Shown: piece by piece, positions 48,806-60,509 of the stretch
Layout of the letters: each line of letters starts with the position of its first letter
Position numbering within the stretch: the stretch's first letter is position 1
From: Thermoplasmatota archaeon
GTDB taxonomy: Archaea > Thermoplasmatota > Thermoplasmata > UBA10834
Reading direction: 5' to 3'
Assembly: GCA_040751795.1 (NCBI GenBank)
Contig: JBFMHR010000004.1
Location: 160,001 to 224,000 of the forward strand
Length of the DNA stretch: 64,000 bases
The notes under the pieces: generated by a model
Told to the model about the DNA's origin: nothing
The model's database searches: none
Seen by the model: only the letters and a program-made list of their open reading frames with translations
Made by a program: the position numbers and the translations under genes

Positions 48806-49982
48806 GCGGAGGCGGCGGGGGCGGGACCTGCCCCGGAGGGCGCTGGTACTGCCAGGCCGCGCCACGTCTCCTCGCGAGCATGATGTCGACGGCCCTCAGG
48901 AAGTCCTTCTTCGTCACTATCCCGACGAGCCTGCCGCGGTCCACCACCAGGAGCCTGCCGATGTTGCGGCCGGTCATCAGCATCAGCGCCTGGGCGGCGT
49001 CCATCTCCGGGGGCACGCTCACGACGTCCCTGATCATGATGTCCCCGACCTTCGTGGAGGGCACCGACTCCTTGGGCACCTTCTGCGCGTCGGTGAGCGT
49101 GACGACGCCGACCACGCCGTAGTCGACGACGGGGAACCCCATGTGGTGCGTCGAGAACATGAGGTCCAGGAGCTGCTGGAGGGAGGTGTCGGGGTGCACG
49201 ACCTGGACGGCGTCGGTCATTATCTGGCGGACGCTGAGCCCCTCGAGGCTGTCCGTGATGACGGTCGCCCGCTCCTCCTCCTGGGCCCCTGTGTAGACGA
49301 AGAACGCGATGAGTATCAGGAAGATCTGGAAGGTGAATATCCCGAAGATCCCCATCGCGATGGCTATGTACCTCCCTGCCCTGGCGGCCTTCCTGGTGGC
49401 CTCGAGGTGTGACATCCTCGTGGCGAGGTACGACCTCAGCATCCGCCCCCCGTCCATGGGGAAGGCGGGCAGGAGGTTGAAGCCCGCGAGGAGGACGTTG
49501 TAGAACGCCATGAGCCCGAGGAGGAGCGCCGTCCCCTCGAGCAGGACGGAGTCGGACGGCCCGAGGTCCATGAGCAGCATCGCGGCGTAGGAGGCGCCGC
49601 CGATGCCGAGGCTGGTGAGGGGCCCGGCGAAGGCCATGACGAGCTCCTGGCGCGGCTTCCTCGGTATCTCCTCGAGCGAGGCGACCCCGCCGAAGAGCAT
49701 CAGGGTGATGCTCTTGATCCGTACGCCGTATCTTATAGCGACGTATGAATGGGCGAGCTCGTGAGCGAGTATCGTGGCGAAGAAGACGACCGCCCCGACT
49801 ATGCCGAAGGCGTACCTCTCCACCCACCATGCGTCGAGGTCCCCGAAGCCGAGGGTGAACCCGACCATGGAGCCGGTGCCCACGGCGAATGCGAACGCGA
49901 AGAGCGGCAGGATTATCAGGAAGGTGACGTGCAGGTGTATCGGGATGCCGAGCACCGTGCCTATCCTCACAGACGCCGCCAT
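48780..49982 (-). CDS. Site-2 protease (M50) with a CBS pair
   Basis: HELAH, AGP, FNLLPAFPMDGGR, two CBS domains, Pro-rich tail. Confidence 0.95.
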   Translation of the reverse strand: MAASVRIGTVLGIPIHLHVTFLIILPLFAFAFAVGTGSMVGFTLGFGDLDAWWVERYAFGIVGAVVFFATILAHELAHSYVAIRYGVRIKSITLMLFGGVASLEEIPRKPRQELVMAFAGPLTSLGIGGASYAAMLLMDLGPSDSVLLEGTALLLGLMAFYNVLLAGFNLLPAFPMDGGRMLRSYLATRMSHLEATRKAARAGRYIAIAMGIFGIFTFQIFLILIAFFVYTGAQEEERATVITDSLEGLSVRQIMTDAVQVVHPDTSLQQLLDLMFSTHHMGFPVVDYGVVGVVTLTDAQKVPKESVPSTKVGDIMIRDVVSVPPEMDAAQALMLMTGRNIGRLLVVDRGRLVGIVTKKDFLRAVDIMLARRRGAAWQYQRPPGQVPPPPPPPSPPAAYG

Positions 49983-50108
49983 ACGCCACGGATTATGCGC
50001 CGTCCCTATTTAAGGATTGGACAGGAATCCGGCTGTCTGGCAGGCGGATTTTTTCCGAAAGCATCATATAAAAGTAAAGATACTGTCTTTTCACGGGATG
50101 GGTACCAC

Positions 50109-53100
50109 TTGCGGCGCGGCGTGGCAATCGCATTGCTGGCGGTCATCATCGTCTCTCTCGTCCTGCCCATGCAGTCCGCCCGCTCGTTCAGGGACGCCGC
50201 GGCGGTGACGGACCTCTCCGAGCCGGCACCTCTCTCCTACACCCCGCTCCTCGAAGCGGTCTCCTTCCCCAGCCCCATCGACACCGCGTCGACCGTGCCC
50301 GAGTTCCCGTTGGTGTCGCGCGCGCTGATGCTCGGGGGCGGGTCCGTCGACGCGATCCTCGAGGACCTCAACGGGGACGGCGCGAGCGACCTCGCCGTGG
50401 CCGTGTCCGGGGCGAACCTCCTCTCCATCTTCTTCAGGCAGGCGGACGGCAGCTTCCTGAGCTGGCCGACGCTCAACGTGACGCTTGACTCCCCGCCCGT
50501 CGACATCGAGGCCATAGACAGGTACGGGGATGAGGACCACCACATCGTTGTTCTTCAGAGCAAGGCTACACCAACCGACTATGACCATTTCGTAGTAGTC
50601 AATATCACCTCTGACACCACCTTCACAAAGACCTCGGCAGTGACATTGACCACAGGTGTGTGTGGCCTAATCACGGGCAACCTGCGTGGAGATACTCGAT
50701 ATGACATCGGAATAGTCTCAGCGGGACCTAATCCAGAATCTGAAACCGGAACGGTCGAGATCTTCACAGGACCGCTATTTGACACCTCTATGCAACTCTA
50801 TGCTGGACTGGGCACTAGCTCGATAGCTTGCGGGGACTTCGACACGAATGGCCTGCTCGATCTGGCGATATCCAACCGCTACGACTCGGACATCGATGTC
50901 TTCCTCGCCCCATTCGTCCCTCCGGTCTCCTCTCCCAATTGGACCCTCAGCGCGCCTGGAGAGCCACGGTCTCTGGCTGTGGGCAACTTCAATGGCGATA
51001 CGACCGTCGACCTGGCGGTGTCCTGCGAATCGCCCGACACAATCCATCTGTTCTATCAGTCGAGCGGGCAGCTGCCCGCTACCGCGTCCCAGAGCATGCC
51101 CACGGAGGCCCCTTGCTCCAGGATCGTCTCGGGGGACATGAGCGGCGACGGCATGGCGGACCTGCTGGCCCTCTCAGAGGAGATGAACGCAGCATACGGC
51201 TACTACCAGAGGGCCGTGGCGCCGCTATGGGTCTCCATCGCGGACGCCGCATTCCCGACTGGTGCATCCCCTGGGGGAGCGGTCATCGGCGACCTCACGG
51301 GGGACGGGGTGGCGGACCTGGCGGTCGCGAGCGCCGGGCAGGACCTCGACGGTTCGAGCATCGCGCTGTATCCATCGAACCCGTACGGCTTCTCCAACTC
51401 CAACAGCACGACGTGGACCTACCTGTACTACGAGGCGTCCGTCATCGCGGTCGGCGACATCGACGGCGACGACTCCGAAGACCTGGTCCTGGGGTACCCC
51501 GAGACCAACTCGTTCGGCTACATGCTCGGGTTCTCCGGCGACATGAGCTTCGTCGGCCTCGGCTACGCCCCGCTCGACATCGTCGTGACCGACGTCAACG
51601 GCGACTCGTTCGCGGACGTGCTCACCTCGAACGGCACCCACCCGTACGGGCTGTTCTACCTGGGAGACCCGTCGGACCCGGGCTCCCTGGTCATGTCGAT
51701 GTTCAACTGCTCCGGCAACCTCACGGACATCGCGACCGGCGACCTCAACGACGACGGCATGGTCGACGTCGTGGCCTCCACCTCGAACGGCACCGTCGAG
51801 ATCATGCTCAACAGCGGCTCGTCACCGGTCTACCCGGACTCCGTCGTCCTGGACGCCACCCCGGGCGTCGGCATACCGTCGGTCGCGGTCGGCGACTTCG
51901 ACTCGGACGGCCTCGACGACATCGCCTACCCGCAGTCCCCGAACAGGATAGAGATACTGCTCCAGGACGAGGGCGCCACCCCGTTCTCGCTGCCGGCCGA
52001 CATCGAGCTGAGCGCGAGCGTGGCATCGCCATTCGTGAGGCTCTGGAGCGGGGACGTGACCGGCGACTTCGAGGCCGACATCGTGGCGATGGTGGGGGAC
52101 GACGAGCGTCTCTTCCTGTTCGACCACGACCAGTTCACGACCACCACCATCCCGTTCGACGAGGTCTCGCTGCCCGAGGTGCCCAGCTTCGTCTCCGTCA
52201 CCGACGTAACGGACGACGGGCACGCGGACGTCGTGGCGGCCTTCCCGTCCGCCGACCTCCTGTTCCTCTACCGCCAGTCTGGATCGTCCCTGCCTCCGTC
52301 CCCGTCGATGACGTTCGTCACCGGCGCCCTCCCCTCGTGCGCTATCCTGGGGGACGGGACGGGCGACCACCGGGGCGACCTCCTCGTGGTCGACTCCGGC
52401 TCGCACAGCGTCTCCGCGTGGGAGCTCATCAACTCCCCGCCTGTCGCGCACTCCGGCGGCCCCTACGTCGCGGGCCAGGGTGACCCGCACCAGTTCAACG
52501 GCTCCGTCACGACATCGTTCTCCGAGCTCCCGTACATCGAGTACATGTGGGACTTCGGGGACGGCAACGTGACCGACTGGGCTAGGGACCCATCCCCAGT
52601 CCACCAGTACCTGGAGCTGGGCAACTTCACGGTCACGCTCACCGTCAGGGACCCCGCGGGTTCGGCCGACAGCGACGCCACCTGGATCGAGGTCGTCGAC
52701 AGCCACCCCTTCGCGGACTTCACATGGTCCCCCCTGAACCCGACCGAGGGCGAGGACGTGGTGTTCACGGACGCCACGTACTCCTTCGACCCCCTGGAGA
52801 CCATCTGGTGGATCGTCGACGGGGTGGTCGTCTCCTCAGGCCTCGAGCACACGGTCACGATGTCCTTCGACGACGGTTCCCACTACGCCAACCTCACCGC
52901 GGTGGACTCCGACGGCTCCGCGGATTCTGTCATCAAGTACTTCTTCGTCCAGCCGCTCGACCCCGAGCTCAGCCTCGTCGCGCCGCTCCTGGTCGACGAG
53001 GGCGACACGGTGCCGTTCGAGGTCATCGTCGACGAGCGCTTCGGCGGCGAGGTGGACGAGGTCGTCGGCTACGAGTGGGACTTCTCCTACGACGGCGCGT

Positions 53101-55163
53101 TCTCCGTGGACGAGGTGACCTCGTCCAACTCCACCACGCACGTGTTCGGCTCCACCGGCGACTCCGAGGTCTACACGGTCGCCGTCAGGGTCACCGATGT
53201 GGACGGCGACGCCAACACCACCATGGCGAGCGTGGAGGTTGCTGACATAGGCCCATCGGCCCAGATTTCCCTGTCCGTGCCGGCCGCGGAGGAGGGGGCG
53301 CCCTTCTCCTTCGTCGACGGCACAAACACATACGACGGGATCGCGTCGTGGGAATGGACCCTCAGGTACCCCGACTCCTCGACTGACACATGGTCCATCC
53401 CGTCCGATGAGATGGCCGCGCTGGAGTTCGAGCTCGGGGACGGCGACTACAGCATGAGGCTCGAGGTGTCCGAGGCCGACGGCGACAGCGACCAGTTCGT
53501 CCTCAACTTCGCGGTCGGGGAGGTCGCGCCGTCCGTCACGCTGACGCTCGACCCGGCCGCGGGCCCGTACATGGAGTTCCAGACGATAGCGTTCACCGTC
53601 CAGGCCGAGAGCTACGACCCCGTCGAGTCGTACGAGTGGGACTTCGTGTCGCCCGGCGCGCAGTTCATACCCGACCTCCGGACCGACGCCGGGGAGGCCT
53701 CCCACTCGTACAGCTGGGTGGGCAACTACACGGCCAAGGTCCGCATCAACGACACGGACGGCTCCTCCGCCGTCGTGGAGGTGGACATAGAGGTCGTCGA
53801 CGCGGGCCTCGAGGGGTCCTTCGATTCCGACGTGGCCGTCCTGCGGGACGACCCGAACAGCACAGGCACCGTCACGTTCGACGCCAGCTCCCTCGCCGAG
53901 GCGTACCCAGACATAGCCTACACGGTCTGGGAGTTCGGTGACGGCGGGACGGAGTTCCTCCTCAACCCGCCCGCGGACCCGGTCACGCACGAGTACTCGC
54001 CCACGCGCGACTACGTGGTGAACGTGACCCTCGCGGACGACGACGGCAACAGCCTCGACATGTCGGGCACCCTGCGCATGGTGGAGCCCGCGATCGACCT
54101 CTCGGGATGGGAGAGCGGGGACGTCGTCAACTCCGGCACGCCCCTCAGGTTCACGGTCGGGGACGACTCGCCGCCGCTGGTCTACGTCATGTACTCGGTC
54201 GACGGCGCCCCGTACCAGGACTTCGAGACGATGTACTCCATCAGCACGGTCGGCTGGGAGGACGGGGCGTACACCGTGGACGTCGTCGCGGAGGACAAGG
54301 ACGGGAACATCGCCCGCGAGACGGGCCTGGAGGTCACGATCGACGACACGGCCCCCTCGGTCACGGTTCTCACAGAGGCGACCGCCGTGTACGGAGGCGA
54401 CAAGGTCAACATCACCATCATGGTCGAGGACGACAACATCGGCGAGGGGGACGTCGTGCTGTTCCTCACGTTCCCCGGGGACGACTCCCCGACCTCGTAC
54501 CTGATGCACCCCGCGGGGGGCGGGGTGTACTACGTCCTGGTCGAGTTGCCCAAGAGGGCGGGCCAGATGGAGTCGTACTACGAGGCCACGGACCTCGCGG
54601 GCAACTCGTTCACCTCCGAGGTCTACACCACGGCGGTCGAGATCCGCTTCATCGACGCGGCCTGGCCGTACCTCCTCCTCATGGCGGTGGCCGCCGCGCT
54701 CGGCACGGCCGCCTACTTCATGCGCGAGGCCTCCATCGCGGTCGACGAGACCTTCGTGATATACAGCGACGGCAGGCTCCTGGCCCACAACACCAGGAGG
54801 CTCAAGCCCGGGATGGACGACCAGGTCCTGAGCGGCATGTTCGTCGCCATACAGGACTTCATCATGGACTCCTTCAAGGACGAGACCTCCTTCCGCCTCC
54901 GCAAGCTCGACTTCGGGGAGAAGTCGGTGCTCATAGAGAAGGGCGAGCACCTCTTCCTCGCGGTGGTCCTGCACGGGAAGGCCTCCAGGAAGGTGTCGAG
55001 GAGGATGAAGGGCGTGCTCGACGACATAGAGGGCGCCTTCTCCGAGCACCTCAGGGACTGGGACGGCGACCTGGACAAGGTCAGGGGGGTAAACGAGCGA
55101 GTGAAGAGGCTCTACTCCAAGGCCCCTCTCCTCCTTGGCCCGCCCCGGAAGAGGGGGAAGTAG
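50109..55163 (+). CDS. Large surface protein: FG-GAP repeats, PKD/Ig domains, TM, cytoplasmic longin-like domain
   Basis: Signal peptide after a TTG start. More than a dozen GDxxGDGxxD-type repeats (DLNGDGASDL, GDFDTNGLLDL, GDLTGDGVADL). PKD motifs YMWDFGDG and YEWDF. TM WPYLLLMAVAAALGTAAYF, then a ~145-aa tail. Confidence 0.88.
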   Translation: MRRGVAIALLAVIIVSLVLPMQSARSFRDAAAVTDLSEPAPLSYTPLLEAVSFPSPIDTASTVPEFPLVSRALMLGGGSVDAILEDLNGDGASDLAVAVSGANLLSIFFRQADGSFLSWPTLNVTLDSPPVDIEAIDRYGDEDHHIVVLQSKATPTDYDHFVVVNITSDTTFTKTSAVTLTTGVCGLITGNLRGDTRYDIGIVSAGPNPESETGTVEIFTGPLFDTSMQLYAGLGTSSIACGDFDTNGLLDLAISNRYDSDIDVFLAPFVPPVSSPNWTLSAPGEPRSLAVGNFNGDTTVDLAVSCESPDTIHLFYQSSGQLPATASQSMPTEAPCSRIVSGDMSGDGMADLLALSEEMNAAYGYYQRAVAPLWVSIADAAFPTGASPGGAVIGDLTGDGVADLAVASAGQDLDGSSIALYPSNPYGFSNSNSTTWTYLYYEASVIAVGDIDGDDSEDLVLGYPETNSFGYMLGFSGDMSFVGLGYAPLDIVVTDVNGDSFADVLTSNGTHPYGLFYLGDPSDPGSLVMSMFNCSGNLTDIATGDLNDDGMVDVVASTSNGTVEIMLNSGSSPVYPDSVVLDATPGVGIPSVAVGDFDSDGLDDIAYPQSPNRIEILLQDEGATPFSLPADIELSASVASPFVRLWSGDVTGDFEADIVAMVGDDERLFLFDHDQFTTTTIPFDEVSLPEVPSFVSVTDVTDDGHADVVAAFPSADLLFLYRQSGSSLPPSPSMTFVTGALPSCAILGDGTGDHRGDLLVVDSGSHSVSAWELINSPPVAHSGGPYVAGQGDPHQFNGSVTTSFSELPYIEYMWDFGDGNVTDWARDPSPVHQYLELGNFTVTLTVRDPAGSADSDATWIEVVDSHPFADFTWSPLNPTEGEDVVFTDATYSFDPLETIWWIVDGVVVSSGLEHTVTMSFDDGSHYANLTAVDSDGSADSVIKYFFVQPLDPELSLVAPLLVDEGDTVPFEVIVDERFGGEVDEVVGYEWDFSYDGAFSVDEVTSSNSTTHVFGSTGDSEVYTVAVRVTDVDGDANTTMASVEVADIGPSAQISLSVPAAEEGAPFSFVDGTNTYDGIASWEWTLRYPDSSTDTWSIPSDEMAALEFELGDGDYSMRLEVSEADGDSDQFVLNFAVGEVAPSVTLTLDPAAGPYMEFQTIAFTVQAESYDPVESYEWDFVSPGAQFIPDLRTDAGEASHSYSWVGNYTAKVRINDTDGSSAVVEVDIEVVDAGLEGSFDSDVAVLRDDPNSTGTVTFDASSLAEAYPDIAYTVWEFGDGGTEFLLNPPADPVTHEYSPTRDYVVNVTLADDDGNSLDMSGTLRMVEPAIDLSGWESGDVVNSGTPLRFTVGDDSPPLVYVMYSVDGAPYQDFETMYSISTVGWEDGAYTVDVVAEDKDGNIARETGLEVTIDDTAPSVTVLTEATAVYGGDKVNITIMVEDDNIGEGDVVLFLTFPGDDSPTSYLMHPAGGGVYYVLVELPKRAGQMESYYEATDLAGNSFTSEVYTTAVEIRFIDAAWPYLLLMAVAAALGTAAYFMREASIAVDETFVIYSDGRLLAHNTRRLKPGMDDQVLSGMFVAIQDFIMDSFKDETSFRLRKLDFGEKSVLIEKGEHLFLAVVLHGKASRKVSRRMKGVLDDIEGAFSEHLRDWDGDLDKVRGVNERVKRLYSKAPLLLGPPRKRGK

Positions 55164-55171
55164 GCGGTACC

Positions 55172-55954
55172 ATGACGCTCCCCCTCCCCGAGTGGCCGAC
55201 CCTCCTTGGCGTGACCGCCTTCTGCACCGTGATGGCCCTCCTCGCCTACAGGCGGAGGATATTCAACCTCTCGGGCTCGGTCGGCGCATTCGTCGTCGGG
55301 ATGGTCATAGGCGTATGCGGGAACGTGCTCTGGCTGTTCCTCCTCCTCGTGTTCCTGCTCACGAGCTTCGGGGCCACCAGGTACAGGTTCGACTGGAAGA
55401 AGAAGCAGGGTTTCCAGGAGGGCGCGAAGGGGGAGCGCTCGTGGAGGAACATCGCGGCCAACGGCGCCATCCCCACCGTCATAGCCTTCGCGAGCTTCGT
55501 CGGCGAGGCGATGGCAGGCGGGGACGTGTCGTCCAACCCGTTCCCGAAGGACATCGCCAGCTACGCGTTCGTCGCGTCGATAGCCGTCGCGGCCTCCGAC
55601 ACCGCCGCGAGCGAGATAGGCATCATCGACCCCAGGGTGTACATGATCACCACCTTCAAGAGGGCCAGGAGGGGGGTCGACGGGGGCGTGTCGCTGACGG
55701 GCCAGCTCATAGCCTTCGTCGCCGCGGCCTACACGTCGGCCGTGGCGTACGTGCTCTTCTCGCTCTTCGACCCGGGCCTCATCGCGGGGCCGCCCACGGT
55801 CTTCGTGCCGATGCTCTGCGGCTTCTTCGGCTGCCAGGTCGACAGCCTCATCGGCGCCACATGGGAGACGCGCGGCAGGATAGGCAAGCTGGGCAACAAC
55901 TTCGCCTCGATAGCGATAGGCACGGGCCTCGCGCTGTTGCTGGCCCTCGCCTAG
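55172..55954 (+). CDS. DUF92 (TMEM19/COG1836) membrane protein
   Basis: RSWRNIAANG, SDTAASEIG, ITTFK...G.DGGVS..G, DSLIGA. Confidence 0.92.
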   Translation: MTLPLPEWPTLLGVTAFCTVMALLAYRRRIFNLSGSVGAFVVGMVIGVCGNVLWLFLLLVFLLTSFGATRYRFDWKKKQGFQEGAKGERSWRNIAANGAIPTVIAFASFVGEAMAGGDVSSNPFPKDIASYAFVASIAVAASDTAASEIGIIDPRVYMITTFKRARRGVDGGVSLTGQLIAFVAAAYTSAVAYVLFSLFDPGLIAGPPTVFVPMLCGFFGCQVDSLIGATWETRGRIGKLGNNFASIAIGTGLALLLALA

Positions 55955-56667
55955 GCCTTGGTGAGGGCGCAGACGTAGAGGGGGCCGTCCCAAGGGTACT
56001 GGAACGTCTCCGACACCCTCCACCCGGTCCTCTCCGCGAGGAGCCTCATCTCCGTCGGCGTCACGAGGAGGAGATCGAACCAGTCGTCCGCCCGCCCCTT
56101 GTACACGAACCTCAGCCTCACCTGCCCTGGCATGAGGCCCGCGGACCTGTTCCTCTCGTGGTACGCCCTGTGCGCGGGCAGGGTCGTGCAGAGCGGGTCG
56201 ATGGACTCGGCGAGGAAGACGCCGTCGTCGGCGAGGACCTCCCTCAGCCGCAGCAGCATGGACATCACCCCTCCGGGCGAGCCGCACAGGCCGAAGTTGT
56301 TCCCGAAGGCGACGGCGGTGCCGAAGTGCCCCTTGGGGAAGTCCAGGTCGCACACGGACATCCTGACGGCGTTCTCCACGCCCCTCCTCCTGGCGACATC
56401 GACCATGCCCTCGCTGATGTCGACGCCCACGGCCTCGAGCCCCATGTCCTGGACGTGGAGCGAGACCCTCCCCGGGCCCATGCCGAGGTCGAGGACCCTC
56501 CCCTTGCAGAGGTTCAGGGCCCTCCTCTCGCACTCCGGGAACGCCTCGAACCCGGCGAAGTAGGAGACCAGGTCGTCGGTGTCCATGTGCCCGTCGTCCC
56601 TCTCGATCGTCAGGGGCTCGCCCGCCCCGGCCATCCTGTCCCTGACGGCGTCCCCGAACGCGTCCAT
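55951..56667 (-). CDS. Class I SAM-dependent methyltransferase
   Basis: MDAFG, IERDDG, VLDLGMGPGR, GVDIS, GNNFGLCG. Confidence 0.88.
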   Translation of the reverse strand: MDAFGDAVRDRMAGAGEPLTIERDDGHMDTDDLVSYFAGFEAFPECERRALNLCKGRVLDLGMGPGRVSLHVQDMGLEAVGVDISEGMVDVARRRGVENAVRMSVCDLDFPKGHFGTAVAFGNNFGLCGSPGGVMSMLLRLREVLADDGVFLAESIDPLCTTLPAHRAYHERNRSAGLMPGQVRLRFVYKGRADDWFDLLLVTPTEMRLLAERTGWRVSETFQYPWDGPLYVCALTKA

Positions 56668-56699
56668 GGAACGTGTGAGGGCTTCTCCGCACAAAAGCC

Positions 56700-57440
56700 T
56701 TACCCGAGCGCGTCGAGGGCGTCGGGGACGCCCTCCATGGTCCCGACCCTGGCGTCCGCCTCGGTGGAGGGCTCCGACGCGTGGGCCATGACCTGGACCG
56801 CGTGCATCCCGACCCTCTTCGCCCCGGCCACGTCCTTCTCCGGGTCGTCGCCGACGTGCGCGGCCGCCTTGGGGAGCGTCCTGAGGCCCTCCAGCGTCAC
56901 CCTGAAGGCCGCCTCGGCCGGCTTCCTCACCATGATCTCGTTCGAGAACGTCGTGACGTCGAAGTGCTCCAGGATGCCCATGCGCCCCATCAGGACCCTG
57001 AGCGCGGAGCCGGGGGTCTTGCCGGTGTTGGATATGAGCCCGAGCCTGTAGCCCTTCTCGGCGACCGCCCTGAGGGCCTCCCTGGCGCCGGGGAGGAGCT
57101 CCGGCGGGTGGTCGAGCAGGCTGTCGGAGTAGGCCCTCTCCACCCGGGAGATCTCCTCGTCGGCCATCTTCCCCGGGAGCCTGCACTCGATGCAGCTCAG
57201 CATGAACAGCACATGGTCCCTGACGGGCATGTCCCTGGCCTTGCCCCAGGTGAGCTCCAGGAAGGTCCCGGTCTTCCTGTAGGCCTCCTCGACCTCCCAG
57301 AGGTCGTGGGGGCGGCCTATCCCCTCAAGGATGTCCGCGATCCTGTGGACCCTGAGCGACGCGACCCTCTCCGCCCCCCCCGGGACCTCCCTGACGAGGG
57401 TGTCCCAGAGGTCGAAGGTCACCGCGATTATCTTCCTCAT
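56700..57440 (-). CDS. HAD-superfamily hydrolase
   Basis: FDLWDTL, ISN, RKP...F, HVGDD...DV.GA...GM. Confidence 0.92.
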   Translation of the reverse strand: MRKIIAVTFDLWDTLVREVPGGAERVASLRVHRIADILEGIGRPHDLWEVEEAYRKTGTFLELTWGKARDMPVRDHVLFMLSCIECRLPGKMADEEISRVERAYSDSLLDHPPELLPGAREALRAVAEKGYRLGLISNTGKTPGSALRVLMGRMGILEHFDVTTFSNEIMVRKPAEAAFRVTLEGLRTLPKAAAHVGDDPEKDVAGAKRVGMHAVQVMAHASEPSTEADARVGTMEGVPDALDALG

Positions 57441-57527: not shown

Positions 57528-57535
57528 TTATATAC
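57528..57535 (+). promoter_or_regulatory. TATA box of the 5S rRNA gene
   Basis: TTATATAC about 30 nt upstream of helix I. Confidence 0.7.
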
Positions 57536-57563
57536 GACATCGTAATTAGACGGGCTCAGAGAA

Positions 57564-57786
57564 TGGTTTGACGGCCATAGTGGCGGGGCCACACCTGGTC
57601 TCATTCCGAACCCAGAAGTTAAGCCCGCCTACGTTCTCTGTGGTACTGAGGTGCGCGAGCCCTCGGGAAGCCCAAGGCCCTTGAGGCCTCTCGGGCATAA
57701 CGGCTAGGTGCGCTAGCCAGGTACCTTCGGGTACAGGGTGAACCGCACCGCTTGAACCCGTTATGCTCGTGGAACGCCGTCAGCCA
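57564..57786 (+). rRNA. rrf: 5S rRNA with a ~95-nt expansion segment
   Basis: Canonical archaeal 5S elements: GACGGCCATAG, ACACCTGGTCTCATTCCGAACCCAGAAGTTAAGC, GTACTGAGG-TGCGCGAGC-CCTCGGGAA. Helix I TGGTTTGACGGC/GCCGTCAGCCA closes 223 nt apart. Confidence 0.93.
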
Positions 57787-57811
57787 CTCTCTTCTCCACC
57801 TCCACTCCCTT
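57787..57811 (+). terminator. Pyrimidine-rich tract downstream of 5S rRNA
   Basis: CTCTCTTCTCCACCTCCACTCCCTT immediately after helix I. Confidence 0.45.
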
Positions 57812-57880: not shown

Positions 57881-58777
57881 ATGGCGCTGACCGAGGGCGA
57901 GAAGATCATCCTTTTGGCCGTCCTCGCGGTGCTCATGGTCTTCGTCCTCTACTTCGAGTTCAGGATCATGCGGGGCAAGGCCAAGGGCGCGCGCAGGCTG
58001 GCTGTCCGCAAGGACGAGGCGTACAACGCGATACTCACGTGCAGGTCGGTCATGAACGTGCTCGAGAGGCAGGGCTCGGACGTGTCGGAGGCCCGCTCCC
58101 TCGTGAACAAGGCGAAGTCCCACATGGAGCGGGGAGAGCACGAGACCGCCATCGACCTCTGCGAGAGGGCGAGGGACGAGCTCACCAAGGCGCGGAAGTC
58201 CCCGGCGGGGGAGGCCGCGCCCCGCGCATCGAAGGAGGACAGGTACGGCCTCGAGGCCCTGGCGGAGGAGATCGTCACGTCCGACGGGCCGGGGCCGGCG
58301 AAGGACACCTACTCCGGGTCGAAGCTCGAGGTCCAGGGCGGCCCGAGCTACCTCGTCGCCAAGTTCGAGCTGAACACGGCGAGGGAGGAGATCTCCAAGG
58401 CCAGCAGGTCTGGGAAGGACACGGGCGAGGCGTCCGAGCTGCTGAGGAGGGCGCAGGCCGAGTTCGACGCGGGCAACTACACGAAGTCCCTCTCCATGTC
58501 AGTCAAGGCGAAGAAGGCGGCTTCCCCGGAGGGCGCGGGGGAGGCCATACCCCTCAGGTCCAGGCAGCCGCACGAGCGCCCGTCCGATGCGGTGGACGGC
58601 GAGGCGGAGGACGTGGTGGACGTCTGCTCCTCGTGCGGGTCCGACATAGACGCGGAGGACGCGTTCTGCGGGTCGTGCGGGGCCAAGCGCAGGAGGGAGC
58701 GCGCGTGCCCGTCGTGCGGCCGCGCCGCCTCCGAGAGCGACAAGTTCTGCAGGAAGTGCGGCGCGAAGGTCCCCTGA
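57881..58777 (+). CDS. Membrane-anchored helical protein with a C-terminal double zinc ribbon
   Basis: N-terminal TM, two similar helical segments (G.D..EA..L...A.....G), CxxCG..FCxxCG twice. Confidence 0.85.
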   Translation: MALTEGEKIILLAVLAVLMVFVLYFEFRIMRGKAKGARRLAVRKDEAYNAILTCRSVMNVLERQGSDVSEARSLVNKAKSHMERGEHETAIDLCERARDELTKARKSPAGEAAPRASKEDRYGLEALAEEIVTSDGPGPAKDTYSGSKLEVQGGPSYLVAKFELNTAREEISKASRSGKDTGEASELLRRAQAEFDAGNYTKSLSMSVKAKKAASPEGAGEAIPLRSRQPHERPSDAVDGEAEDVVDVCSSCGSDIDAEDAFCGSCGAKRRRERACPSCGRAASESDKFCRKCGAKVP

Positions 58778-58783
58778 GCCGGT

Positions 58784-59545
58784 CTAGCGCCCGGAGTACT
58801 TGTTCCTGACGATGAGGGCGGCCAGCGCGCCCGCGCCGAAGCCGTTGTCGATGTTGACCACGCCTATCCCGCTGGAGCAGCTGGAGAGCATCCCGAGGAG
58901 GGCGGCCATCCCGCCGAAGCTCGCGCCGTATCCGACGCTGGTCGGGACCGCCACGACGGGCTTGTCGGTGAGCCCCGCGACCACGCTCGGCAGCGCCCCC
59001 TCCATGCCGGCTATGACTATGATGATGTCCGAGGACTCGAGCTGCCTCAGGTTGGAGGTGAGCCTGTGGACGCCGGCGACGCCCACGTCGTAGAGCCTCT
59101 CGACATCGCACCCCAGCATGTCGCACGTGACCGCTGCCTCCTCGGCCACGGGGATGTCCGATGTGCCGGCCGTGACGACCGCCACCCTGCCGACCCTCCC
59201 CCTCGGCTCCGTCCCCACGGCGGCGATCCTCGCCTCCGGGAACCAACGGACCCCGCCGCCCAGCTCCCGCGCGAGCATCCTGTAGGTGTCCTCCGGGACG
59301 CGGGTGAAGACGGCCTCCCCCTTCCTCGCGAGGGTCCTCCTGGCTATCTCGAGGACCTGCGCGTCGGTCTTCCCGGGCGTGTAGATGGCCTCGGGGATCC
59401 CGCGCCTGAGCTCACGGTGGTGGTCAAGCTTGGCGAAGTCGAGGTCCTCGTAGGGCATCCCCCTGAGGCGCTCCAGCGCATCGGCGACCGTGATGTCGCC
59501 CCTCGCCAGCTCCGAGAGGGTCCTCTCGATGCTCTCCCTGTTCAT
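58784..59545 (-). CDS. larB: Nickel-pincer cofactor biosynthesis protein LarB
   Basis: DHHRELRRG.PEAI, TAGTSDIPVAEEA, DVGVAG.HRL, AGMEGALPSVV, PTSVGYG, VVNIDNGFGA. Confidence 0.95.
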   Translation of the reverse strand: MNRESIERTLSELARGDITVADALERLRGMPYEDLDFAKLDHHRELRRGIPEAIYTPGKTDAQVLEIARRTLARKGEAVFTRVPEDTYRMLARELGGGVRWFPEARIAAVGTEPRGRVGRVAVVTAGTSDIPVAEEAAVTCDMLGCDVERLYDVGVAGVHRLTSNLRQLESSDIIIVIAGMEGALPSVVAGLTDKPVVAVPTSVGYGASFGGMAALLGMLSSCSSGIGVVNIDNGFGAGALAALIVRNKYSGR

Positions 59546-60348
59546 ATGTCGAGCACCTCGTCCATGCTCCCCGCCCTGTACCCCTCCAGGTCGACCGTGA
59601 CGTACGTGAACCCCAGGCCCTTCAGCCTCCTGACGAGCTCGTCCCTCCGCCCGCCACTCGCGAGCGCCGCGACCTCCGTCCTCGGCACCTCGATCCTGGC
59701 GACGGTCCCGTGCGCGCGGACCCTGGCCTGGGCGAACCCCAGGGACGCGAGCAGCTCCTCCGCCCGCTCGATCCTGTGGAGCAGCCTGGGGGTCAGCTCG
59801 TCGCCGTAGGGCACCCTGGTGGCCAGGCAGGGGCTCGGGGCCCTCGCGTGGGCGGCCAGGCCGAGGCGCTTGGATATCCTGACGACGTCCTTCTTCCCGA
59901 GGCCGGCCTCGGCCAGCGGGCTCCTGACCCCGAGCTCCCTCTTAGCCTCGAGCCCGGGCCTGAAGGAGAGCTCGTCGTCGGCGTTGGAGCCGTCCAGGAT
60001 GTGTGCGAGCGAGCGCTCGTCAGCGACCTTCCTGATCTCGGTGAACCCCGCCAGCTTGCACTTGTAGCACCTGTCCGGCGGGTTCGCGGAGAACGAGGGG
60101 TCCCTGAGGAGGTCCATCCTGACCAGGACGTGCGCTATGCCGATCCCCTTCGCGGTGGCCTTGGCCCAGCGGAGGTCGCCCCTCGGGTAGAGGGGTGAGT
60201 CGATCGTCACCGCCAAGGCCCCGTCCCCCAGCTCGTCCCGGGCGACCTTCGCCACGAGGGTGGAGTCGGCGCCGCCTGAGAAGGCGACCGCCGCGGAGCC
60301 CGCCGACCGTACGGTGGAGCGGAGCCTGTCGAGCTTCTTGTCGGTCAC
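59542..60348 (-). CDS. larE: ATP-dependent sulfur transferase LarE
   Basis: PP-loop AFSGGADS, NPPDRCYKCK, DGSN.DD...RPG, SPCLATR.PYG, RVRAHG..ARIE, DLEGYR.GSM. GTG start inferred. Confidence 0.93.
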   Translation of the reverse strand: MTDKKLDRLRSTVRSAGSAAVAFSGGADSTLVAKVARDELGDGALAVTIDSPLYPRGDLRWAKATAKGIGIAHVLVRMDLLRDPSFSANPPDRCYKCKLAGFTEIRKVADERSLAHILDGSNADDELSFRPGLEAKRELGVRSPLAEAGLGKKDVVRISKRLGLAAHARAPSPCLATRVPYGDELTPRLLHRIERAEELLASLGFAQARVRAHGTVARIEVPRTEVAALASGGRRDELVRRLKGLGFTYVTVDLEGYRAGSMDEVLDI

Positions 60349-60509
60349 GGCACCGGACTCTAACGGCGGGTGCTTATTTCTAGTTTCGCGGCGCGCGCGG
60401 TGGCGTCCGCCGCTCGCCAGAATCCTTGGGCGCCGCGGCAACGGGGTGGAACATTATATATAGCGAGGCGAGAGGTAGTGAACGTGGGCTGGGCTTCCGG
60501 AGGAATAGC

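What the first reader, a model, noticed from the sequence alone, without database searches (positions are those of the whole stretch)
57675..57769. The 5S insert folds as a cloverleaf-like four-way junction with complementary kissing loops, or as an alternative rod
Seen: a short hairpin AGGCC/GGCCT (57675-57689), then a closing stem CGGGCATAAC/GTTATGCTCG (57692-57701/57760-57769, one G-U). Inside are three arms. GGCTAG-[GTGCG]-CTAGCC spans 57702-57718. GTACC-[TTCG]-GGTAC spans 57721-57734 and gives a C(UUCG)G tetraloop. GGGT-GA...GA-ACCC spans 57736-57759 with possible tandem G-A pairs, and its loop contains CGCAC. The loops GUGCG (57708-57712) and CGCAC (57744-57748) are exactly complementary. 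Inference: a loop-loop pseudoknot giving a compact tRNA- or Alu-like domain, or a mutually exclusive long rod using GGTGCG/CGCACC, which could be a conformational switch on the ribosome. This much structure argues for selection. I saw no clear bulge-helix-bulge splice motif at the junctions.
Basis: partly seen in the sequence, partly recalled or inferred. Interest (0 to 1): 0.85.

Follow-up and report, generated by a model that had tools for sequence, protein, structure and literature searches.

The report
5S rRNA expansion: rod, not cloverleaf
The extra 96 bases in this archaeon's only 5S ribosomal RNA gene are a conserved, expressed expansion segment that folds as a short hairpin plus a long straight rod, not a tRNA-like cloverleaf, and it is shared by many uncultured Thermoplasmata relatives.

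Summary
The sequence features are all at the stated coordinates.

**What it is.** Window 57566-57786 (+) is the genome's single 5S rRNA gene. It carries a ~96-nt insert (57675-57770) in the 3' strand of helix V.

**Fold.** The GUGCG/CGCAC complementarity is real and covaries. However, it is an ordinary nested helix in an unbranched rod:
- a 12-bp closing stem;
- internal loop CUA/GCUUGAAC;
- the 6-bp helix GGUGCG/CGCACC;
- internal loop CUA/GAAC;
- a 10-bp hairpin capped by C(UUCG)G.

A 5-bp hairpin lies beside the rod.

**Comparative evidence.** In 84 distinct homologues, 89% of rod cells pair and 31 of 33 pairs show compensatory change. The two cloverleaf-only arms show one compensatory cell (arm 1) and break outside the window's own family: each is complete in 1 of 36 sequences.

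**Distribution.** A covariance model finds the insert in 53 of 151 genomes sampled from the class. It also finds it in 13 genomes of other classes of the phylum.

**Expression.** Contigs from four RNA libraries run through the insert, no spliced form was seen, and there is no depth outside the gene.

**Closest known.** Site and shape match the text description of the Halococcus-type 5S expansion ("asymmetric V"). Sequence homology could not be tested. I found no paper describing it in Thermoplasmata.

**Function.** Unknown. I infer a solvent-exposed ribosomal appendage with a conserved docking loop.

The parts
57528..57534 (+). TTATATA, a TATA-box-like element upstream of the 5S gene
   Evidence: Read directly from the sequence. 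Inferred to be the archaeal promoter of a stand-alone 5S gene; not tested.
57566..57674 (+). 5S rRNA core, 5' part: helix I 5' strand, helices II-III, helix V 5' strand, loop E, helix IV and the distal helix V 3' strand (GCCCA)
   Evidence: RF00001 match at 79.5 bits. Fold. RNAalifold consensus. It is the only 5S gene in the genome.
57675..57689 (+). Expansion arm a: 5-bp hairpin AGGCC/GGCCU with a 5-nt loop
   Evidence: All 5 pairs show both-side changes in 84 sequences, with 98.1% of cells paired. An RNA-library variant, C57678T with G57686A, is compensatory.
57692..57703 (+). Rod closing stem, 5' strand (pairs with 57758-57769; 12 bp)
Evidence: The inner four pairs are 92.9% paired and 4 of 4 are compensatory (for example GC:41, CG:32).
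57704..57706 (+). Internal loop 1, 5' strand: CUA
   Evidence: Among 84 sequences: C 67 / U 17, U 78, A 83. The following G57707 is 84 of 84.
57707..57712 (+). Middle helix, 5' strand GGUGCG (pairs with 57744-57749, CGCACC).
   Evidence: 97.6% of cells paired, 5 of 6 pairs compensatory, and at least 5 of 6 pairs formed in 84 of 84 sequences.
57713..57715 (+). Internal loop 2, 5' strand: CUA
   Evidence: It is replaced by GAG, GGA or UUA in some families, and the 3' strand changes with it.
57716..57739 (+). Distal hairpin: 10-position stem GCCAGGUACC/GGUACAGGGU, with tandem A-G/G-A mismatches at 57719-57720 and 57735-57736, capped by the UUCG tetraloop 57726-57729
   Evidence: The base pairs GCC/GGU covary (GU:55, GC:8, UA:4; CG:64, UA:6). 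The two mismatched positions are Watson-Crick or wobble pairs in 36 and 45 of 84 sequences. The C-G pair closing the loop is 81 of 81.
57740..57743 (+). Internal loop 2, 3' strand: GAAC
   Evidence: A57741 is 81 of 84 and A57742 is 73 of 84.
57744..57749 (+). Middle helix, 3' strand CGCACC
57750..57757 (+). Internal loop 1, 3' strand GCUUGAAC. With loop 1's 5' strand, this is the most conserved unpaired part of the insert.
   Evidence: Of 84 sequences: G 83, U 79, U 77, G 64, A 82, A 80. Position 57757 varies freely (C 32 / A 32 / G 20), although the cloverleaf would pair it.
57758..57769 (+). Rod closing stem, 3' strand
57771..57786 (+). 5S rRNA core, 3' part: proximal helix V 3' strand (GGAACG) and helix I 3' strand (GCCGUCAGCC)
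   Evidence: Folds. An Illumina adapter directly follows 57786 in an RNA-library contig.

Best explanation
**What it is.** This is a constitutive expansion segment of 5S ribosomal RNA. About 96 nt (57675-57770) are inserted into the 3' strand of helix V, between loop E and the loop A three-way junction. This turns the site into a four-way junction and leaves the 5S core fold intact.

**How it folds.** The insert is an 'asymmetric V'. One arm is a 5-bp hairpin. The other is a long unbranched rod of three helices (12, 6 and 10 positions) separated by two asymmetric internal loops (CUA opposite GCUUGAAC, and CUA opposite GAAC) and capped by a C(UUCG)G tetraloop. The GUGCG/CGCAC complementarity is the middle helix of this rod.

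**What happens to it.** It is transcribed with the 5S gene from its own promoter, is not removed, and enters the ribosome as part of a roughly 220-nt 5S rRNA.

**Shown:**
- the gene context;
- the rod fold, by covariation;
- its wide conservation;
- that it is the only 5S copy in the genome;
- its presence in RNA libraries.

**Inferred, by analogy with Halococcus morrhuae:**
- It projects into solvent from the central protuberance.
- Its near-invariant loop 1 (YUAG / GYUUGAA) and stiff UUCG-capped tip serve as a docking surface for a protein or another rRNA element.
For: **Gene context**
- RF00001 matches at 79.5 bits.
- It is the only 5S gene in a genome that is 92.8% complete.
- The whole molecule folds with core helices, hairpin and rod.

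**Rod fold from alignments not fitted to a model**
- RNAalifold on a MAFFT alignment of 32 full-length sequences predicts the rod by itself.
- On MAFFT alignment A1 (35 sequences), 90.3% of cells pair and 23 pairs show both-side changes.

**Rod fold from model-fitted alignments**
- 70 sequences: 89.3% paired, 31 of 33 pairs compensatory, covariation score 0.664 against at most 0.143 for slid partners.
- 84 sequences: 89.0% paired, 31 of 33 pairs compensatory, 0.717 against at most 0.117.
- Six rod-specific pairs are at least 5 of 6 formed in 34 of 34 f1 sequences and 46 of 50 others.

**Loops facing each other**
- Loop 2 CUA->CCA occurs together with GAAC->CAAC (L030/L084).
- Loop 1 CUA->CCA occurs together with UGAAC->UUAAC (L027/L085).

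**Distribution**
- 20 of 30 relatives' 5S loci read carry the insert.
- 53 of 151 genomes sampled from the class carry it.
- 15 of 151 genomes sampled from the phylum carry it, 13 of them in other classes.

**RNA evidence**
- Four RNA-library runs from three studies were laid.
- X15 has a 168-nt contig, 57614-57781, with 0 differences.
- X16 has a contig over 57648-57786, and X17 one over 57648-57779. Each is followed directly by adapter sequence.
- Adapters also directly precede 57572, 57573 and 57584.
- Depth is zero in the bins 57540-57569 and 57790-57810 in all four runs.
- No joints were reported.

**Analogy**
- The halobacterial 5S expansion lies at the same place and has the same shape (PMC7812874, passages seen).
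- Cryo-EM shows a four-way junction and an outward, flexible insert (PMC7530397, passages seen).
Against: - Function is not shown. No partner was identified, and a look at uL18 open frames gave no expansion-linked difference.
- The RNA evidence comes from assembled contigs, not raw reads. The tool warns that DNA can be present in RNA libraries and that contigs cannot show RNA ends or levels.
- The 3' junction cannot be bridged by 31 nt on both sides, because only about 17 nt follow it.
- A2, A3, A4 and A6 are fitted to models and lean towards them.
- The measure 'pairs with a change on both sides' is reached by 4 of 500 shuffles and 33 of 500. That single measure is therefore weak; the other four measures are 0 of 500.
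- Two middle positions of the distal stem are mismatched in 48 and 39 of 84 sequences.
- In genus g2 the proximal helix V 3' strand reads GGUAAG. RNAalifold did not predict proximal helix V in the consensus.
- In the window's own sequence a cloverleaf plus kissing helix is roughly iso-energetic with the rod under a generous estimate.
Confidence: 0.85

Rival explanations
1. The insert is a compact tRNA- or Alu-like domain: a cloverleaf four-way junction (closing stem plus three arms) locked by a 5-bp kissing interaction between the GUGCG and CGCAC loops.
For: - All arms can be drawn in the window's sequence.
- In family f1, arm 1 is 6 of 6 paired in 34 of 34 sequences, and arm 3 is 4 of 4 paired in 16 of 34.
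- The loop complementarity covaries.
- The cloverleaf at -41.5 kcal/mol plus a kissing duplex at about -6.0 comes close to the rod at -48.0.
Against: - In an alignment fitted to this model, arm 1 has one compensatory cell and is 75.2% paired. Arm 3 is 66.4% paired, with 15, 31, 41 and 7 of 70 cells unpaired per pair.
- Outside f1 each arm is complete in 1 of 36 sequences.
- Position 57757 (C 32 / A 32 / G 20) varies while its proposed partner stays G in 72 of 84.
- The same bases covary with their rod partners.
- Families f16 and f41 lack a second CUAG, so arm 1 cannot form there.
- A 5-nt loop with all five bases in a kissing helix is sterically demanding (established knowledge; not computed here).
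- ARAGORN and Rfam find nothing tRNA- or Alu-like.
Confidence: 0.04
2. A conformational switch. In the window's own family the insert alternates between the rod and the cloverleaf/kissing form, for example in response to Mg2+, temperature or a ligand on the ribosome.
For: - Both folds can be drawn in f1, and they are roughly iso-energetic under a generous estimate for the kissing helix.
- Arm 1 complementarity is intact in 34 of 34 f1 sequences.
Against: - No compensatory change supports the alternative arms.
- Arm 3 is broken at one pair in 18 of 34 f1 sequences.
- The alternative complementarity follows automatically from two copies of a palindromic loop module flanked by G-C pairs, so it needs no selection.
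- The pseudoknot-free ensemble gives the cloverleaf pairs a probability of 0.0002 or less.
Confidence: 0.07
3. An intervening sequence or intron. It would be transcribed and then excised, by the splicing endonuclease or by RNase III-like cleavage, leaving a normal or fragmented 5S rRNA.
For: - Stepanov and Fox warn that insertions in 5S genes might be excised (PMC7812874, passage seen).
- Deleting 57675-57770 would leave a near-normal helix V (read from the sequence).
Against: - RNA-library contigs run through the insert. The 5' junction is bridged with 61 and 107 nt in X15.
- No joints were reported in four RNA runs.
- Strong purifying selection acts on unpaired loop bases and the UUCG cap across the phylum. 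That is not expected of a discarded spacer.
- No bulge-helix-bulge arrangement is visible in the folds.
- The analogous Halococcus insert is retained in ribosomes (PMC7530397).
Confidence: 0.03
4. An assembly artefact, a pseudogene or a recently inserted mobile element.
For: - The genomes are metagenome-assembled.
- One relative's locus (L066) has an N-filled gap inside its 5S gene.
Against: - The same insert, at the same site, occurs in 84 distinct sequences from independent assemblies, including single-contig genomes.
- It is the only 5S gene in the genome, and the model finds a single copy of the insert there.
- DNA and RNA runs from 16 studies hold the stretch.
Confidence: 0.01

Closest known systems
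Halococcus-type (halobacterial) 5S rRNA expansion segment: Luehrsen et al. 1981 (recalled through the papers below); Stepanov and Fox 2021, PMC7812874; Tirumalai et al. 2020, PMC7530397
   Same: - It is an insertion in the 3' strand of helix V, between loop E and the three-way junction. Halobacterial site: core 104.1/105, equal to bacterial 108/109. Here: after Rfam model position 107.
- It nearly doubles 5S length.
- It is the only 5S type in the genome.
- It is described as an 'asymmetric V', with a short hairpin arm and a long unbranched arm of helices separated by internal loops. That is the fold found here.
- It forms a four-way junction with the parent helix.
- The gene's 3' end is misplaced by standard 5S models.
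   Different: - Length: 96 nt here (about 94 to 112 among relatives), against 108 nt.
- Host: non-halophilic, uncultured Thermoplasmata and other classes of the same phylum, against the order Halobacteriales.
- Sequence homology could not be tested, because no Halococcus sequence was reachable with these tools.
- In halobacteria the distal stem-loop is reported as the most conserved part. Here the proximal internal loop and the UUCG cap are the most conserved.
Bacterial 5S expansion segments (Thermoanaerobacterales, Clostridiales and others; PMC7812874)
   Same: These are independent structured modules added to an intact 5S core, typically extended helices.
   Different: They sit at other insertion sites (for example the helix III bulge), often coexist with normal 5S copies, and are in bacteria.
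tRNA-like or SRP Alu-like compact domains with loop-loop tertiary pairs
   Same: In the window's own sequence a cloverleaf with complementary loops can be drawn.
   Different: The extra arms are not conserved. ARAGORN gives no match and Rfam gives no match.
5S rRNA loop E (bulged-G / S-turn) motif; the motif consensus is recalled, not tested
   Same: Both internal loops of the rod read xUA on the 5' strand and GAA on the 3' strand. This is the same strand orientation as the gene's own loop E (GUA / GAA, 57642-57644 and 57667-57669).
   Different: The position of the bulged G is a pyrimidine (C or U). Some families have UAA or AAA in place of GAA. No 3D test was possible.

Membership tests
Prokaryotic 5S rRNA expansion segment (sensu Stepanov and Fox 2021) | The insertion lies inside a genuine 5S rRNA gene whose conserved core can still fold | tested here: met
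   RF00001 at 79.5 bits. Core helices I-IV and distal helix V are recovered. Relatives without the insert have a normal 5S of about 120 nt.
Prokaryotic 5S rRNA expansion segment (sensu Stepanov and Fox 2021) | The insert folds as an independent module that does not disturb the core | tested here: met
   Insert alone: -48.0 kcal/mol, z = -4.42. The same fold appears in the whole molecule. Covariation.
Prokaryotic 5S rRNA expansion segment (sensu Stepanov and Fox 2021) | The insert is retained in the mature RNA, not excised | tested here: inconclusive
   Contigs from four RNA libraries run through the insert, with no joints and no depth outside the gene. These are contigs rather than raw reads, and the 3' junction has fewer than 31 nt on its far side.
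Prokaryotic 5S rRNA expansion segment (sensu Stepanov and Fox 2021) | The expanded gene is the functional 5S, with no normal copy beside it | tested here: met
   One RF00001 match in G000. One match in each of the 22 family-f1 relatives with a hit; the other 2 of 24 had none.
Halococcus-type 5S expansion | Site between loop E and the three-way junction (archaeal core 104.1/105; bacterial 108/109) | tested here: met
   The last core base before the insert aligns to RF00001 model position 107. It lies four bases after the GGGAAG loop E strand. Uncertainty is about 1-2 nt, because numbering systems differ.
Halococcus-type 5S expansion | Asymmetric V: a short hairpin plus a long unbranched arm of helices and internal loops | tested here: met
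   compared with the text description in PMC7812874. The figure was not seen.
Halococcus-type 5S expansion | 108-nt insert and sequence similarity to the Halococcus insert | not testable with these tools
   The length here is 96 nt. No Halococcus, Halalkalicoccus, Halomarina or Halodesulfurarchaeum 5S sequence could be reached. The plasmid search gave only normal haloarchaeal 5S genes. A locus cannot serve as a centre, and record handle W01 has no relatives.
Halococcus-type 5S expansion | Host in the order Halobacteriales | tested here: not met
   Record titles name Thermoplasmata / Thermoplasmatota MAGs.
   Arm 1 is 75.2% paired with one compensatory cell. Arm 3 is 66.4% paired. Each arm is complete in 1 of 36 sequences outside f1.
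   At least 5 of 6 pairs formed in 84 of 84 sequences, and 5 of 6 pairs are compensatory. The pairing is equally, and better, explained as a nested helix.
   ARAGORN: 0 genes in the window. Rfam on 57670-57775: best E 1.7-4.2, at 10-14 bits, against gathering scores of 45 or more.
Archaeal bulge-helix-bulge intron | Two 3-nt bulges separated by a 4-bp helix at the exon-intron boundaries | tested here: not met
   By inspection of the folds, both boundaries lie in a four-way junction with linkers of 0-2 nt. No dedicated motif search was run.
Archaeal bulge-helix-bulge intron | A spliced product is present in RNA | tested here: not met
   No joints in four RNA-library runs. These were contigs only.
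Kink-turn or loop E type internal loop | Tandem sheared G-A pairs, or a bulged-G S-turn geometry | not testable with these tools
   This is a sequence resemblance only (xUA / GAA). Families with UAA or AAA in place of GAA argue against a strict kink-turn.

The most novel reading that the evidence does not exclude
The Thermoplasmatota insert and the halobacterial 5S expansion are the same element. They share the insertion site, the short-hairpin-plus-rod shape and the four-way junction.

Either the expansion is ancient and was lost many times, or an rRNA module moved between archaeal phyla.

Its near-invariant loop (YUAG opposite GYUUGAA), built like a second copy of 5S loop E, would be the docking site of a dedicated, still unknown ribosome-associated factor. 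The rod would have grown by duplication of a loop-E-like module.
Probability: 0.2. Interest if true: 0.75.

Novelty: new member of a known kind. Interest (0 to 1): 0.55.

Why it matters
Large expansions of prokaryotic rRNA are rare. The Halococcus 5S insert has stood for forty years as a curiosity confined to a few haloarchaeal genera. Its authors wrote that no other post-LUCA insertion nearly doubles an rRNA (PMC7530397).

Here a second archaeal lineage carries an insert of the same kind at the same site:
- It is common in sediments, wetlands and soils.
- It spans many families and more than one class.
- It carries 84 distinct sequences' worth of covariation, far more than was available for Halococcus.

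This gives three things:
- a well-determined secondary structure for a 5S expansion;
- a set of conserved unpaired bases that point to where function lies;
- a direct test of whether 5S expansions arose once or repeatedly.

There is also a practical warning. Standard 5S models end the gene about 100 nt too early in these genomes.

Tried and rejected
**Leads that went nowhere**
- **Cloverleaf with kissing loops.** Rejected on comparative grounds.
- **tRNA, SRP-Alu or any other Rfam family for the insert alone.** Nothing found.
- **Origin of the insert by duplication of the 5S helix IV / loop D hairpin.** 57706-57718 matches 57649-57661 at 12 of 13 bases, but 21 of 1000 dinucleotide shuffles score as well. 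The matching bases lie in the covarying middle helix and differ in other families. This is a weak hint only.
- **Kink-turn reading of loop 1.** Not pursued. Several families have U or A where the critical G would be.
- **uL18 extension linked to the insert.** PF17144 open frames (stop to stop) range from about 165 to over 300 aa in genomes with and without the insert. That makes them uninformative.
- **Neighbouring genes.** A HAD hydrolase, an AIR-carboxylase-like protein and a PP-loop ATPase are unrelated to the 5S gene. Two ORFs had no Pfam match.
- **Comparison with Halococcus.** Not possible. The blastn search of plasmids found only normal haloarchaeal 5S genes, covering 45-47% of the query.
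- **RNA depth.** Regions without depth in RNA contigs, and the relative depths of parts of the gene, were not used as evidence of level.
- **Shares below 0.2.** Not used.
- **Literature.** Five searches listed no paper describing a 5S expansion in Thermoplasmata. This covers only the held library.
- **Papers seen.** I saw passages of PMC7812874, PMC7530397 and PMC4153887, not whole texts or figures. Supplementary files were not opened. Supplemental Fig. S6 of PMC7812874 would show the halobacterial structures.

**Unpublished genome.** The class samples include genome G116, flagged unpublished. It is one of the 98 genomes without a match. It enters only the tallies 53 of 151 and f11 0 of 15.
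Full report
**1. The observation**

These include the exact complementarity of GUGCG (57708-57712) and CGCAC (57744-57748).

Rfam finds one family in the whole 64-kb window: 5S rRNA at 57567-57686, 79.5 bits. ARAGORN finds no tRNA.

The Rfam match forces the last 25 model positions onto the start of the insert. Reading the sequence, the true partners of the helix I 5' strand (57566-57575) and of CGUUC (57632-57636) are GCCGUCAGCC and GGAACG at 57771-57785. The gene therefore runs from about 57566 to 57786 and carries roughly 96 extra bases (57675-57770).

It is the only 5S gene in the genome, which is 2.05 Mb, 53 contigs and 92.8% complete.

The insert alone folds at -48.0 kcal/mol, z = -4.42, and 0 of 200 shuffles fold as well. 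The whole molecule has z = -3.89. In both, the minimum-energy fold is the small hairpin plus a rod, not a cloverleaf.

**2. Relatives**

A 5S search of 41 related genomes split the hits into two groups:
- All family f1 and f2 genomes with a hit, plus one other family, scored 68-80 bits.
- Most other class relatives scored 91-114 bits.

Reading 30 loci explained the split. Twenty carry an insert at the same place, and ten have a normal 5S of about 120 nt.

A pattern scan of one-genome-per-species contigs found 36 more loci. Their titles name uncultured Thermoplasmata / Thermoplasmatota MAGs (one search was a mistyped version that found nothing).

A covariance model of the insert, built with a structure neutral between the two hypotheses (R1), found it in 53 of 151 genomes sampled from the class:

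| Family | With insert / sampled |
|---|---|
| f1 | 15/15 |
| f2 | 2/2 |
| f8 | 3/10 |
| f15 | 3/4 |
| f16 | 15/17 |
| f17 | 1/1 |
| f21 | 4/4 |
| f23 | 3/3 |
| f25 | 4/4 |
| f27 | 1/1 |
| f29 | 1/1 |

It found none in the other 18 families sampled.

A second model found the insert in 15 of 151 genomes sampled from the phylum. Thirteen of these are in other classes (f41 9/9, f62 2, f61 1, f39 1/2). These are samples. Absence means 'not found in those searched'.

**3. Rod or cloverleaf**

The two models share the small hairpin, ten pairs of the closing stem, the UUCG hairpin core and the GUGCG/CGCAC pairs. They differ in three places:
- whether GG 57702-57703 pairs with CC 57758-57759 (rod) or with CC 57717-57718 (arm 1);
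- whether GCC 57716-57718 pairs with GGU 57737-57739 (rod) or belongs to arm 1;
- whether GGGU 57736-57739 pairs with ACCC 57756-57759 (arm 3).

*MAFFT alignment of 35 distinct sequences (A1), not fitted to either model.* The shared helices covary strongly. The cloverleaf-only arms show no compensatory change, and arm 3 is broken at one pair in 16 of 35. One rod-only pair shows GC:32 / CG:3.

RNAalifold on 32 full-length sequences, also aligned without a model, predicts the rod on its own.

*Best-case test for each hypothesis.* I built one covariance model per hypothesis from the same 70 distinct sequences (R2 rod, R3 cloverleaf without the pseudoknot). I realigned all sequences to each and counted pairs.

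| Measure | Rod | Cloverleaf |
|---|---|---|
| Cells paired | 89.3% | 84.3% overall |
| Pairs with both-side change | 31 of 33 | 23 of 30 |
| Covariation score | 0.664 (slid partners at most 0.143) | 0.538 |
| Model-specific helices | inner closing stem 92.9% paired, 4 of 4 compensatory; middle helix 97.1% paired | arm 1 75.2% paired, one compensatory cell, 7 to 31 of 70 unpaired per pair; arm 3 66.4% paired, 7 to 41 of 70 unpaired per pair |

For the rod, the base of the distal stem also covaries (for example CG:46, UG:16, UA:5).

*Adding 14 sequences from other classes (84 distinct).* This gives 89.0% paired, 31 of 33 pairs compensatory, and a score of 0.717 against at most 0.117 for slid partners.

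The weakest measure is 'pairs with a change on both sides'. It is reached by 4 of 500 shuffles and 33 of 500. The other four measures are 0 of 500.

*Per-sequence counts.*

| Element | Family f1 | Outside f1 |
|---|---|---|
| Arm 1, 6 of 6 pairs | 34 of 34 | 1 of 36 |
| Arm 3, 4 of 4 pairs | 16 of 34 | 1 of 36 |
| Six rod-only pairs, at least 5 of 6 | 34 of 34 | 46 of 50 |

The middle helix has at least 5 of 6 pairs in 84 of 84 sequences.

Families f16 and f41 have no second CUAG at all.

Position 57757, which arm 3 would pair, varies freely (C 32, A 32, G 20). Its proposed partner stays G in 72 of 84.

Changes in the loop strands that face each other in the rod co-occur. CUA->CCA appears with GAAC->CAAC in one lineage and with UGAAC->UUAAC in another. 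That is two events only.

*Why the cloverleaf can be drawn.* The rod contains two copies of one module: a G-C-closed internal loop with CUA-G on the 5' strand and GAAC-C on the 3' strand. CUAG is a palindrome, so the two copies are complementary to each other, and so are the G-C pairs flanking them. The alternative arms come free with the repetition.

In the window's own sequence the rod is -48.0 kcal/mol. The cloverleaf without the pseudoknot is -41.5, and a free GUGCG/CGCAC duplex is worth about -6.0. A switch is therefore not excluded energetically in family f1, but nothing comparative supports it.

**4. Is it in the RNA**

The stretch is held by runs of 16 studies. Six rows are on record as RNA.

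I laid four RNA-library runs from three studies on 57540-57810. All are assembled contigs.
- X15 has one 168-nt contig, 57614-57781, with no differences. It bridges the 5' junction with 61 and 107 nt.
- X16 has a contig over 57648-57786 (13 differences, so a relative), followed directly by Illumina adapter.
- X17 has a contig over 57648-57779, also followed by adapter.
- Adapters also directly precede 57572, 57573 and 57584.
- All four runs have zero depth in the bins 57540-57569 and 57790-57810.
- No joint was reported.
- The X16 variant C57678T with G57686A is a compensatory change in the small hairpin.

The limits are these. Contigs cannot show RNA ends or levels. DNA can contaminate RNA libraries. 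The 3' junction has only about 17 nt beyond it.

Even so, the pattern (cover confined to the gene, short library fragments ending at the gene's ends, no spliced form) fits a retained insert. It does not fit an intron or excised spacer.

**5. What is conserved besides the helices (84 sequences)**

| Element | Bases (count of 84 unless stated) |
|---|---|
| Loop 1, 5' strand | Y (C 67 / U 17), U 78, A 83, then G 84 |
| Loop 1, 3' strand | G 83, Y, U 79, U 77, G 64, A 82, A 80 |
| Pair closing the UUCG cap | C-G, 81 of 81 |
| Tetraloop letters | 66-79 |
| Loop 2 adenines | 81 and 73 |

Unpaired bases this conserved across classes point to a specific contact. Both loops read xUA / GAA in the same strand orientation as the gene's own loop E (GUA / GAA). 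That resemblance is recalled motif knowledge and was not tested.

**6. Comparison with what is known**

Passages of Stepanov and Fox 2021 (PMC7812874) state:
- Archaeal expanded 5S rRNAs were found only in Halobacteriales.
- The insert there is 108 nt, between core positions 104.1 and 105, next to loop E.
- Such genes are routinely misannotated as shorter.

Passages of Tirumalai et al. [quoted passage not shown] The insert is outward-pointing and flexible, and the 5S core is undisturbed.

The insert here follows RF00001 model position 107 and has the same shape. It works like, and may be, the same kind of element in a different phylum.

Membership of the Halococcus type in the strict sense (108 nt, sequence homology) could not be tested. 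No Halococcus sequence was reachable.

Five literature searches listed no description of a 5S expansion in Thermoplasmata.

**7. Mechanism and verdict**

*Shown:*
- a conserved, single-copy, RNA-retained expansion of 5S rRNA helix V;
- a fold consisting of a hairpin plus a rod.

*Inferred by analogy:* it protrudes from the central protuberance into solvent.

*Inferred from conservation:* loop 1 and the capped tip are contact surfaces for a partner that remains unknown.

A look for an insert-linked difference in uL18 was uninformative. The neighbouring genes are unrelated.

Its headline model (cloverleaf with kissing loops) is not supported, and its fallback (rod) is.

The feature is a new member of a known but very rare kind. 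It is of moderate interest to ribosome evolution.

Noticed in passing
window 57567-57686: The Rfam 5S model ends the gene about 100 nt too early, forcing helix I's 3' strand onto the start of the insert. Automatic annotation of these genomes will give a truncated 5S gene, as Stepanov and Fox reported for haloarchaea.
   Followed up: yes
window 57649-57661 and 57706-57718: A 12-of-13 base identity (AGGTGCGC[G/T]AGCC) links the 5S helix IV / loop D region and the insert. 21 of 1000 dinucleotide shuffles score as well. It is a weak hint of origin by internal duplication, and it is not seen in families whose middle helix has a different sequence.
   Followed up: partly
L133 and L134 (G277, contig C128, 5906-6026 and 8442-8562): One genome of another class carries two insert-bearing 5S genes about 2.5 kb apart on one contig. 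They are nearly identical in the printed alignment. Every other insert-bearing genome had a single match.
   Followed up: no
L085, L088, L089 (f15); L111, L112, L116, L117 (f21); L119 (f23): In these lineages the distal hairpin of the rod is lengthened by about 12-16 nt. The extension carries its own small stem-loop (for example a GCAA or UUCG cap). The expansion therefore keeps growing at its tip while the loop 1 region stays fixed.
   Followed up: partly
L066 (public MAG contig, 5S locus): The 5S gene is interrupted by a run of C followed by an N-filled gap and a second partial 5' half. This is a scaffolding artefact in that assembly, not a biological variant.
   Followed up: no
genus g2 loci, e.g. 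L013, L014, L028: The proximal helix V 3' strand reads GGUAAG instead of GGAACG, with no matching change in the 5' strand (CGUUCU). That leaves two mismatches next to the four-way junction. RNAalifold did not predict this helix in the consensus.
   Followed up: no
window 56700-57440 (-), 58784-59545 (-), 59542-60441 (-), 57883-58777 (+), 55112-56692 (-): Neighbours of the 5S gene are a HAD-family hydrolase, an AIR-carboxylase-like protein and a PP-loop ATPase-like protein. Two further ORFs (298 and 526 aa) have no Pfam match. The 5S gene stands alone, away from any 16S/23S gene in this window.
   Followed up: partly
window 49749-57186: There are very long overlapping open frames on both strands, for example 1804 aa on + and 737 aa on -. 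This is as expected in G+C-rich DNA. Which of them are real genes was not examined.
   Followed up: no
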